Positions 39,766-45,361 of a stretch of 64,000 nt of DNA are shown here, one piece after another. The first letter of the stretch is position 1. Each line of letters starts with the position of its first letter. Under the pieces are notes generated by a model. The model was not told the DNA's origin. It made no database searches and worked only from the letters and a program-made list of their open reading frames with translations. The stretch comes from Narcine bancroftii (Eukaryota), in contig NC_091470.1 of assembly GCF_036971445.1 (NCBI RefSeq), positions 221,092,001 through 221,156,000 on the forward strand, given 5' to 3'. The position numbers and the translations under genes are program-made.

Positions 39766-40539
39766 TGTCTTGGGTAAACTTATACCTCTCATTTTGTTCA
39801 TTTTAGATTGGTCACAGTGTTTGAGCTACCGAAAGAAAATAGACACACACACCGAGAGCAGTTCAGTTTATACAAATGTTTATTACTAATTCAAAAGCTG
39901 ATTTCACACTACAATATGCAAGCCCTTCCCAACTATACTTATCAACGCTTGGACTGGTCCCAACTGCCGAAGCGAGGCAACGACTGCACACTTGTAGTAG
40001 GTTGTCAGGGCGCTGGTAGCAGCTTCTCCACCTCCCCCGACTGGGACGTTGCTCGGACTCTGGCTGTTCTTCCTTCTTGACAAGGGGTGTTCCCACCCCT
40101 CGGAGAGTCTAAACTTCAGCAGCAGGACCACAGGCTTATATACCCCAAAAACAATTAATCATGCGCCTACTCATTCTAATATTTGTCAGTCAAAATCAAA
40201 ACTGAACATTACATTCTACAATTTAGAAGATTAATTATTATGGAACCAGGATGTTATAATTTCCTGGTTTATCTCGTAGATACAAAGACTTATTAAAACT
40301 TCTCGAGCAAGACAGGTTGTGACCAATTCGTCAATTTCAGAGTGTTGCATTTGACAACTGCTTTCCCTGGGCCTCACAGTGGAATTCCATTTCAAAGTGT
40401 ATCTTCAGATAAGTCCCCATGGCTGAGTTTAATTACATCTGCTAGTTCTGAAAGTAAGGTGACCTGCGTGTGGACCCAGTGTCGTCAGTTCCACATAAGC
40501 AAAAAGCATCTGGGTACATGGTTTTAATCCTCCATTACA
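39766..40539 (-). repeat. ERV 3' LTR
   Basis: Direct repeat of 44588-45361, preceded on minus by the PPT. Confidence 0.97.
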
Positions 40540-40550
40540 TCCCACCCCTT
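40540..40550 (-). promoter_or_regulatory. Polypurine tract
   Basis: AAGGGGTGGGA directly abuts the 3' LTR. Confidence 0.9.
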
Positions 40551-40575
40551 GGTCACAATCTGTCATTTGCGAGGC

Positions 40576-44100: not shown

Positions 44101-44623
44101 GCTGCTGCCGGAGTTTAATATTACGGCAAATCATTTGGACATGCTTATCTTCCCATTCTTTGGCTCTGTCCTGACTGGTGCGAACAATCTCGCTCATCAT
44201 GGAACAGCATTGTCGCAGGACTTCTAGCTCCTCCTCTAATTGCTTTCTTTTGCACTGAGATTCTACTTCTCTTTGAATTAATTCTGCTTCACGCTGAACG
44301 GAGTGGCGTAATGCTGTGGCCAGCAACCAAAAACCATTCGTCAGCGTTCCCTTTTTATCAGGAAATTTACTTTCTCGAAGGAGAGTGGCAACCCGCTCTC
44401 CCAGAGGTGCACTTGATGAGTCTAACTTCTCATCCCAACTAATGGGTGGTCCCAACAAAGACAGGGTATTGGCCAACATGCCAAACCCATCGTCTTTGGA
44501 AGTCCATCCAGGAATCAAGAACTGCTCAGGGCTCACCTCTTTCTTTCGGCGAAACATCTTGAGACCAACCCTGCTCGCAGCGCCAATTGTCTTGGGTAAA
44601 CTTATACCTCTCATTTTGTTCAT
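41189..44623 (-). CDS. gag-pol: Fused, internally deleted Gag-Pro-Pol polyprotein (1144 aa)
   Basis: Gag WDGNIW; protease LVDTGA (43301-09); RT [31 protein letters not shown], YIDD (42569-80); RNase H AELKAV, FTDS, HVDAH; integrase HHCC, WQIDY, SDNG, LVEQ. Confidence 0.93.
   Translation of the reverse strand: [1144 protein letters not shown]
44568..44585 (-). promoter_or_regulatory. Primer-binding site complementary to tRNA-Ser
   Basis: TGGCGCTGCGAGCAGGGT, 2 nt inside the 5' LTR; its complement ACCCTGCTCGCAGCGCCA resembles vertebrate tRNA-Ser(TGA/CGA) 3' ends (from memory). Confidence 0.85.
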
Positions 44624-45361
44624 TTTAGATTGGTCACAGTGTTTGAGCTACCGAAAGAAAATAGACACACACACCGAGAGCAGTTCAGTTTATACAAATG
44701 TTTATTACTAATTCAAAAGCTGATTTCACACTACAATATGCAAGCCCTTCCCAACTATACTTATCAACGCTTGGACTGGTCCCAACTGCCGAAGCGAGGC
44801 AACGACTGCACACTTGTAGTAGGTTGTCAGGGCGCTGGTAGCAGCTTCTCCACCTCCCCCGACTGGGACGTTGCTCGGACTCTGGCTGTTCTTCCTTCTT
44901 GACAAGGGGTGTTCCCACCCCTCGGAGAGTCTAAACTTCAGCAGCAGGACCACAGGCTTATATACCCCAAAAACAATTAATCATGCGCCTACTCATTCTA
45001 ATATTTGTCAGTCAAAATCAAAACTGAACATTACATTCTACAATTTAGAAGATTAATTATTATGGAACCAGGATGTTATAATTTCCTGGTTTATCTCGTA
45101 GATACAAAGACTTATTAAAACTTCTCGAGCAAGACAGGTTGTGACCAATTCGTCAATTTCAGAGTGTTGCATTTGACAACTGCTTTCCCTGGGCCTCACA
45201 GTGGAATTCCATTTCAAAGTGTATCTTCAGATAAGTCCCCATGGCTGAGTTTAATTACATCTGCTAGTTCTGAAAGTAAGGTGACCTGCGTGTGGACCCA
45301 GTGTCGTCAGTTCCACATAAGCAAAAAGCATCTGGGTACATGGTTTTAATCCTCCATTACA
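44588..45361 (-). repeat. ERV 5' LTR (TATA near 44960, AATAAA 44701-44706)
   Basis: Direct repeat of 39766-40539; no differences seen by eye and the duplicated ORF translations are identical. Confidence 0.97.

What the first reader, a model, noticed from the sequence alone, without database searches (positions are those of the whole stretch)
39766..45361. Miniaturised, recently mobile class III ERV whose internal deletions all preserve one long ORF
Seen: apparently identical LTRs, perfect TSD, PBS and PPT, but only 4048 bp internal sequence, carrying an uninterrupted 1144-codon ORF. Against the known ERV-S/ERV-L layout, at least four blocks are missing. These are most of capsid (after FRQKAGE, about 43615), the RT QG..SP motif (HLP|VSPS, about 42607), the RT thumb ([11 protein letters not shown], about 42565) and the RNase H TDGS motif (QVAYHP|, about 42230). 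All four are in frame; chance is (1/3)^4, about 1%. Usually conserved residues look eroded (ILGIN, FFSIL, RYDVP, VEQMN), yet there is no frameshift. Inference: a non-autonomous satellite retrovirus copied in trans by a helper, under selection for a translatable RNA (NMD escape or co-translational packaging) rather than for enzyme function.
Basis: partly seen in the sequence, partly recalled or inferred. Interest (0 to 1): 0.9.

Follow-up and report, generated by a model that had tools for sequence, protein, structure and literature searches.

The report
Deleted retrovirus family keeping open frame
This is one of at least 432 copies of a shrunken endogenous retrovirus in a ray genome that has lost its capsid and the working parts of its copying enzyme, so it likely borrows them from full-length relatives, and its spreading copies keep the reading frame open while the protein sequence drifts, likely because the RNA must stay translatable to survive or be packaged.

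Summary
The element has identical 774-bp LTRs, a 5-bp target duplication, 4048 bp of internal sequence and four in-frame gag-pol deletions (678, 66, 450, 177 nt). A fifth, in env (1089 nt), is also in frame. The junctions occur in 295 and 432 genomic copies and in independent contigs. Full-length class III (ERV-S-like) relatives share the genome and recombine with the short form in both directions, as expected of helper and satellite. Frame selection is supported: an older sister lineage independently spread an in-frame 846-nt pol deletion (168 copies). Inherited stops and frameshifts are depleted (3 per 136 substitutions against 43 per 365 private; P=0.001), while recent amino-acid change looks neutral (N:S 18:5). 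Corrections: the single ORF comes from loss of the gag stop in a young sub-lineage (79 copies; 10 of 54 on one chromosome). Three of the four 'eroded' motifs are family traits. Only 25 of 54 copies are free of extra stops or frameshifts, and one frameshifted copy has itself been copied. It works like mouse IAP 1Δ1: a new variant of a known kind. Decay escape versus a cis-acting protein is untested.

The parts
45362..45366 (.). 5-bp target site duplication, upstream copy
44588..45361 (-). 5' LTR, 774 bp, TGT...ACA; TATA-like box at 44964, AATAAA at 44706; in-frame ATG at 44623 lies in the LTR downstream of the poly(A) signal
44568..44585 (-). Primer binding site, 18 nt, likely tRNA-Ser(UGA); three variants alternate among copies (30, 27, 25 of 91)
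   Evidence: anticodon read by eye from a tRNA-like fragment in L141; ARAGORN and Rfam gave no call (60, 64)
43436..44557 (-). gag remnant: basic N-terminus, coiled-coil region, proline-rich linker, short C-terminal tail; likely start ATG at 44557
44530..44540 (-). Splice donor after gag codon 7 (AG|GTGAG)
   Evidence: joint in two guessed-RNA runs; motif
43626..43630 (-). Junction of the 678-nt in-frame deletion; removes nearly the whole predicted two-domain capsid and a small C-terminal helical domain
   Evidence: (295 copies)
43436..43438 (-). Sense codon where full-length relatives and most short copies have the gag TGA stop
43030..43435 (-). Protease, DTG at 43309, complete
42611..42615 (-). 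Junction of the 66-nt in-frame RT deletion (QG..SP motif)
42567..42571 (-). Junction of the 450-nt in-frame RT deletion directly after YIDD
   Evidence: 432 copies
42231..42235 (-). Junction of the 177-nt in-frame deletion; removes the first RNase H aspartate motif
41192..41870 (-). Integrase zinc finger and core; HHCC and D,D(35)E residues present
41189..41191 (-). Premature TAA that cuts the last 63 codons of pol; shared by 35 of 54 copies on C1
40579..41028 (-). env remnant: splice acceptor at 40974, signal-peptide-like start, 1089-nt in-frame deletion at 40802, membrane anchor; predicted spliced product 139 aa
40540..40550 (-). Polypurine tract
39766..40539 (-). 3' LTR, identical to the 5' LTR; AATAAA at 39884
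39761..39765 (.). 5-bp target site duplication, downstream copy

Best explanation
This is a member of a family of several hundred deleted class III endogenous retrovirus copies that lack capsid, RT thumb and an RNase H catalytic motif, are likely packaged and reverse-transcribed by proteins of full-length relatives, and are likely selected to keep the gag-pol frame open because ribosome passage protects the RNA from nonsense-mediated decay, not because the protein works. Shown: the deletions, copy numbers, distinct target sites, two-way recombinants with the full-length class, depletion of inherited stops and frameshifts, neutral-looking recent amino-acid change. Inferred: co-packaging with helper RNA; a stepwise history (env, then RT thumb, then the 66- and 177-nt blocks, then capsid, then the gag stop); the decay mechanism. 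On this reading a shorter RNA with an open frame stays abundant and competes well for helper particles. An out-of-frame deletion would put a stop far from the poly(A) site and lower the RNA. A stop near the 3' end, as in the integrase tail, costs little and spreads.
For: 432 and 295 exact junction matches, controls 0. TSD perfect in 30 of 32 C1 copies with both ends, 32 different sites; three PBS variants among near-identical copies. 5 of 54 C1 short copies carry full-length-type tracts, and 4 of 8 young pol-bearing copies painted carry the short form's 3' end. An independent in-frame 846-nt pol deletion is present in 5 of 14 sampled old copies and gives 168 genome matches, while the old lineage's env deletion (1127 nt) is out of frame. 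Stops plus frameshifts: private 43 per 365 non-CpG substitutions, shared 3 per 136, P=0.001; P=0.004 with the inherited CpG stop. N:S from gag-complete short copies to the stop-less core is 18:5, like private changes (273:92, P=0.81) and unlike the full-length lineage (55:122, P=3e-5). The integrase-tail stop spread to 35 of 54. The inherited pol disruptions seen lie in copies that keep the gag stop, as in RSV, where pol stops trigger decay only if the ribosome passes the gag stop (PMC2925335, passages). Readthrough elements protect MoMLV RNA from decay (PMC10141005, passages).
Against: The three pol deletions were fixed in ancestors that still had the gag stop, where by the RSV result a pol stop should cost little; the explanation then needs readthrough-dependent protection, which is untested here. 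Inherited disruptions exist: two pol frameshifts in two copies with different TSDs, and an integrase stop in four. Only 25 of 54 C1 copies have no extra stop or frameshift. Private mutations are mostly host germline changes and inherited ones include RT errors, so their indel rates may differ without selection. Recombination blurs 'shared' versus 'private'. All remaining catalytic residues of protease and integrase are still there in most copies, and the N-terminal Gag region shows N3:S8 on the whole short-form lineage. Counts per domain are small.
Confidence: 0.5

Rival explanations
1. Same helper-dependent family, but the frame is kept because the truncated Gag or Gag-Pol protein acts in cis, as reported for mouse IAP 1Δ1: it binds its own RNA on emerging from the ribosome and co-assembles with helper Gag through the retained N-terminal and coiled-coil region or a downstream pol part.
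For: Direct precedent (PMC6466679 and PMC7411935, passages). The N-terminal Gag region is never hit by a spreading deletion and shows N3:S8 on the short-form lineage. It would explain in-frame pol deletions under a gag stop if a downstream part (RNase H remnant or integrase) were the RNA binder. Loss of the gag stop makes an obligate fusion like 1Δ1.
Against: The 678-nt deletion removes the predicted capsid and a small helical domain resembling SAP/LEM nucleic-acid-binding folds (Z only 4-6). Recent changes are neutral-looking overall, 5:0 N:S in the integrase core. The integrase tail is cut in most copies.
Confidence: 0.3
2. No frame selection: a few lucky founder copies at well-expressed sites seeded the family, and their deletions were in frame by chance or by codon-phase microhomology.
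For: Only five large gag-pol events; the finding was picked because it looked unusual; frameshifted copies can be copied; defective elements without ORFs dominate new insertions in cattle ERVK (PMC10924933, abstract and passages).
Against: The fifth event (846 nt) was found after the claim, in another lineage, and is in frame. Phase bias gives only 0.34-0.40 per event. Small inherited disruptions are also depleted.
Confidence: 0.13
3. Mutual complementation: the short form supplies working protease and integrase (or a mini-Env) to defective partners, so enzyme function is what keeps the frame.
For: Protease DTG, integrase HHCC and D,D(35)E are kept; every spreading deletion spares protease and integrase core; the env deletion is in frame and keeps leader and anchor.
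Against: Protease N8:S4 and integrase core N6:S5 on the short-form lineage against 0:15 and 6:15 in the full-length lineage; integrase tail cut in 35 of 54; supply in trans would not favour the carrier's own RNA; 4 of 12 two-LTR relatives examined keep gag, pol and env open.
Confidence: 0.06
4. Assembly artefact or DNA-level duplication.
For: Repeats are prone to collapse; no long raw reads were laid.
Against: Hundreds of dispersed copies with their own TSDs; contigs of a run from another study bridge all five junctions with 44 or more letters on each side (X10 records 9, 12, 13, 14).
Confidence: 0.01

Closest known systems
Mouse IAP 1Δ1 non-autonomous subfamily (PMC6466679, PMC7411935: passages read; the primary paper, Saito et al. 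2008, was not held)
   Same: Internal deletion joins gag and pol into one ORF; needs Gag and Pol in trans; spreads widely; translation matters in cis.
   Different: IAP is a class II element with one 1.9-kb deletion, and its fusion protein is reported to act in cis. Here a class III element took four successive in-frame gag-pol deletions and then lost the gag stop; the protein looks unconstrained; a sister lineage repeated the pattern.
XtERV-S and ERV-S/ERV-L class III elements (PMC8278194, passages and table read)
   Same: TGT..ACA LTR ends, 5-bp TSD, YIDD, in-frame TGA between gag and pol, HX4HX28CX2C integrase, no myristoylation or Cys-His motif, gamma-type env.
   Different: [quoted passage not shown]
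Bovine ERVK[2-1-LTR] C-type and D-type (PMC10924933, abstract and passages)
   Same: Autonomous and defective classes coexist, the defective class is numerous, a recombinant is reported.
   Different: D-type elements lack intact ORFs; here the defective class keeps its frame.
Rous sarcoma virus and MoMLV escape from nonsense-mediated decay (PMC2925335, PMC10141005; passages)
   Same: Unspliced retroviral RNA is sensitive to premature stops; readthrough protects.
   Different: Shown by experiment in exogenous viruses; here only inferred from the pattern among copies.

Membership tests
Class III ERV, ERV-S-like (features from PMC8278194) | LTRs bounded by TGT and ACA | tested here: met
Class III ERV, ERV-S-like | 5-bp target site duplication | tested here: met
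   30 of 32 C1 copies with both ends; this copy
Class III ERV, ERV-S-like | YIDD RT active site | tested here: met
Class III ERV, ERV-S-like | gag and pol in one frame, separated by a TGA stop | tested here: met
   TGA in 13 of 13 young full-length copies and 42 of 54 short copies; lost in this copy
Class III ERV, ERV-S-like | Integrase HX4HX28CX2C and D,D(35)E | tested here: met
   H903, H908, C937, C940, D969, D1027, E1063; first D-D gap 57 rather than 58
Class III ERV, ERV-S-like | Gamma-type env (CXXC, furin site, CX6CC), no dUTPase | tested here: met
   full-length relative: TLV_coat E 9e-15, the three motifs found, no dUTPase family in pol
Class III ERV, ERV-S-like | Serine tRNA primer | tested here: inconclusive
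   PBS matches the 3' end of a tRNA-like fragment with a TGA anticodon read by eye; ARAGORN and Rfam gave no call (60, 64)
Class III ERV, ERV-S-like | Placement by RT phylogeny with named references | not tested
   no labelled reference set held; best solved-structure matches are foamy virus IN and RT (E 2e-21), then MLV RT
IAP 1Δ1-type non-autonomous ERV (works-like) | In-frame internal deletion giving a gag-pol fusion ORF | tested here: met
   met in the stop-less sub-lineage, 79 matches; other copies keep the gag stop
IAP 1Δ1-type non-autonomous ERV (works-like) | Lacks essential functions and spreads beside autonomous relatives | tested here: met
IAP 1Δ1-type non-autonomous ERV (works-like) | Translation product promotes mobility in cis | not testable with these tools
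   needs experiment; sequence pattern favours frame over protein
IAP family itself (class II) | Betaretrovirus-like layout with frameshifted gag-pro-pol (recalled) | tested here: not met
   gag-TGA-pol in one frame, class III markers; not filed as an IAP

The most novel reading that the evidence does not exclude
A retroviral satellite whose open reading frame has become a pure cis-element, a ribosome track with no protein function. It was kept through four successive deletions and extended by loss of the gag stop, and the same solution arose twice in one family. Frame continuity, not coding content, would then be a general filter on which defective ERVs spread.
Probability: 0.4. Interest if true: 0.7.

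Novelty: new variant of a known kind. Interest (0 to 1): 0.5.

Why it matters
Defective elements often outnumber their helpers, and why some do is poorly understood. This family separates frame from protein in nature: hundreds of datable copies, with and without the gag stop, with open and broken frames, in one genome. If the reading holds, an intact ORF in an ERV is no evidence of protein function or domestication, which bears on how such ORFs are annotated (NCBI already lists products of this family as ray genes). It also adds a young class III family with full-length members in a cartilaginous fish; a search for 'Narcine' with 'endogenous retrovirus' found no paper in the held library.

Tried and rejected
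Splicing as the source of the deletions: rejected, no GT..AG ends. Codon-phase microhomology as the cause of in-frame deletions: too weak. Env-less, pol-complete copies L047, L054, L060 as ancestral intermediates: rejected, they are recombinants of the young full-length class with the short form's 3' part; older copies L117 and the gag-complete group give the order instead. The 431 matches to the undeleted RT-thumb start are not a helper count: the 14 sampled are old and decayed. Domain-by-domain shared-versus-private N:S tests gave nothing firm (P 0.01 and 0.04 for pol remnants on C1, 0.14-1 with all copies; the 'L1076*' row is an artefact of a double change). A spliced DNA copy of the env message was sought and not found. 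One search used a mis-built pattern and says nothing. No RNA holder is on record; RNA status of X1 and X8 is a guess, and contig depth was not used to rank expression. Contigs of X1, X8 and X9 show only the stop-bearing letter at 43437, but contigs drop rare variants. ARAGORN and Rfam found no whole tRNA at three pattern hits. Pfam and PDB sequence searches do not name the Gag capsid and Foldseek gave no match at E 0.001. Literature searches returned no paper; most subscription journals are not held, and no supplements were read. Earlier-findings look-ups were empty.

Full report
What is there. The window holds a 5596-bp provirus-like element on the minus strand: two identical 774-bp LTRs, a perfect 5-bp target duplication, PBS, PPT and 4048 bp of internal sequence. 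One frame is open from 44647 to 41189, with partial RT, RNase H, protease and integrase domains. The count of 1144 codons starts at an ATG inside the LTR; the start conserved in a stingray relative gives 1122. The host is probably the electric ray Narcine bancroftii: proteins so labelled lie on contigs of exactly the lengths of C8 and C1. The flanks hold fragments that look like LINE remnants and no other long ORF (read by eye).

The deletions. The genome holds longer relatives. The young class has 6507 bp inside the LTRs, laid out as gag, TGA, pol, then env; 4 of 12 two-LTR copies examined keep all three frames open. With one natural copy as ruler, the window element lacks 678, 66, 450 and 177 nt in gag-pol and 1089 nt in env. 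All are multiples of three, with 0-5 nt of microhomology and no splice ends, which fits template switching in reverse transcription (inference). The 678-nt block is almost exactly the part of Gag conserved in distant relatives. Its model (pLDDT 88) resembles foamy virus capsid (Z 5.7, rmsd 5.1, 151 residues) and other Gag capsid domains, plus a small SAP/LEM-like helical domain. These Z values are modest and Foldseek gave nothing at E 0.001. Without capsid, RT thumb and the first RNase H aspartate the element cannot replicate alone (established retroviral biology).

A family, not a locus. Exact junction patterns give 432 (RT thumb) and 295 (capsid) matches, reversed controls 0. I took all 54 RT-thumb matches on contig C1 as a sample not chosen for intactness. 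TSDs are perfect in 30 of 32 copies with both ends, and all 32 sites differ. Three PBS variants alternate among 91 copies, as expected if each round copies a host primer tRNA (inference). Contigs from a run of another study bridge all five junctions, so this is no assembly artefact; no raw long reads were laid. LTR pairs differ by 0.09% in the stop-less group (9 copies) and 0.35% in the stop-bearing group (25 copies). Cartilaginous fish mutate slowly (recalled), so 'recent' may still mean some millions of years.

Helper link. At 425 diagnostic sites, 5 of 54 short copies carry tracts of the young full-length type, and 4 of 8 young pol-bearing copies carry the short form's 3' end (these 8 were top protein hits, not a random sample). 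Retroviral recombination needs two RNAs in one particle (established), so co-packaging is likely. The window's LTR is 91-92% like the full-length class and 97% like the recombinants; a sister subgroup is 99.5% like them.

Order of events. One old C1 copy has only the env and 450-nt deletions; ten lack the three pol blocks but keep capsid (three of them by recombination); 41 lack all. The gag stop was lost last, in a young group: 79 exact matches, 10 of 54 on C1 against 42 with TGA and 2 with a gap there. So the 'one long ORF' belongs to a minority.

Is the frame selected? An older, decayed subfamily has its own 846-nt pol deletion, identical in 5 of 14 sampled copies, in frame, with 168 matches at one mismatch. 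Its common env deletion of 1127 nt is out of frame. Large inherited gag-pol deletions are thus 5 of 5 in frame against 12 of 37 private indels of 10 nt or more (P=0.007; four of the five prompted the finding; five poorly aligned old copies left out). On C1, private gag-pol indels are 9 in frame to 33 frameshifts (48 copies; six poorly aligned ones dropped). Stops plus frameshifts number 43 per 365 private non-CpG substitutions but 3 per 136 shared ones (P=0.001; substitutions from 47 copies). Amino acids are not held: N:S is 18:5 along the recent path, like private changes and unlike 55:122 in the full-length lineage. Over the whole short-form lineage, which includes time as an autonomous element, it is 35:31.

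Results against. Two copies with different TSDs share two pol frameshifts; four share an integrase stop; 35 of 54 share the stop that cuts the integrase tail; only 25 of 54 are free of extra stops or frameshifts. Private and inherited mutations arise by partly different processes, and recombination blurs the tree.

Mechanism. I favour RNA survival through translation (0.5). In RSV, premature stops in the unspliced RNA trigger decay, and those in pol do so only when the ribosome passes the gag stop (PMC2925335, passages); MoMLV readthrough elements protect RNA (PMC10141005, passages). This fits the tolerated late stop, the loss of the gag stop and the inherited pol disruptions being in stop-bearing copies. 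It fits less well the in-frame pol deletions fixed while the stop was present. The rival is a cis-acting truncated protein, as reported for IAP 1Δ1 (PMC6466679, PMC7411935, passages; primary paper not held) (0.3). Two runs guessed to be RNA show a GT..AG joint from gag codon 7 to env, absent from two DNA runs and from the genome. This hints that the family is transcribed but cannot be assigned to the short form.

Comparison and verdict. The parent family meets the class III, ERV-S-like features listed for XtERV-S (PMC8278194, passages); no RT tree with named references was built. The short form works like IAP 1Δ1 and differs from cattle D-type elements, which lack ORFs (PMC10924933). Searches found no paper on this family or on serial frame-preserving deletions, in a library that misses most subscription journals; no supplements were read. 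The feature is real and well supported; the kind is known; the serial and repeated frame conservation with a drifting protein is the new part. Interest 0.5.

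Noticed in passing
window 44530-44540 and 40960-40980 (minus strand): Canonical splice donor after gag codon 7 and acceptor at 40974; the joint is in frame, so Env borrows seven Gag residues as the start of its leader. 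In the short form it would give a 139-aa mini-Env with leader and membrane anchor; 43 of 52 C1 copies have no stop or deletion there.
   Followed up: partly
L042:2335-3132, model residues 218-261: The class III Gag has a small helical domain after capsid that resembles SAP/LEM folds (Z 4.1-6.4, about 40 residues), in place of a zinc knuckle; possibly its nucleic-acid-binding part.
   Followed up: partly
L141:1468-1526: About 60 nt resembling the 3' part of tRNA-Ser(UGA), ending in CCA, lie 1.7 kb from an old element's junction; possibly a primer tRNA copied beyond the usual 18 nt.
   Followed up: partly
L125 and L135: Two of five old copies with the 846-nt deletion have a sense codon at the gag stop, each a different one; chance decay or a parallel loss.
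   Followed up: no
L047, L054, L060, L050: Recombinants joining the young full-length 5' part to the short form's 3' part; three thereby took over the env deletion.
   Followed up: partly
P0121, P0122, P0001: NCBI lists products of this family as ray genes, one named Friend virus susceptibility protein 1-like and one fused into a sperm acrosome-associated protein 9 model.
   Followed up: no
window 43437 in runs X1, X8, X9, X10: Only run X10 shows contigs with the stop-less letter; the stop-less sub-lineage may vary between individuals, but contigs drop rare variants.
   Followed up: no
window 2914-3585, 18099-18623, 37499-38128: Frames that look like LINE endonuclease and RT remnants, judged by eye; tandem repeats of 55 and 34 nt at 6927-7030 and 55134-55232.
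   Followed up: no
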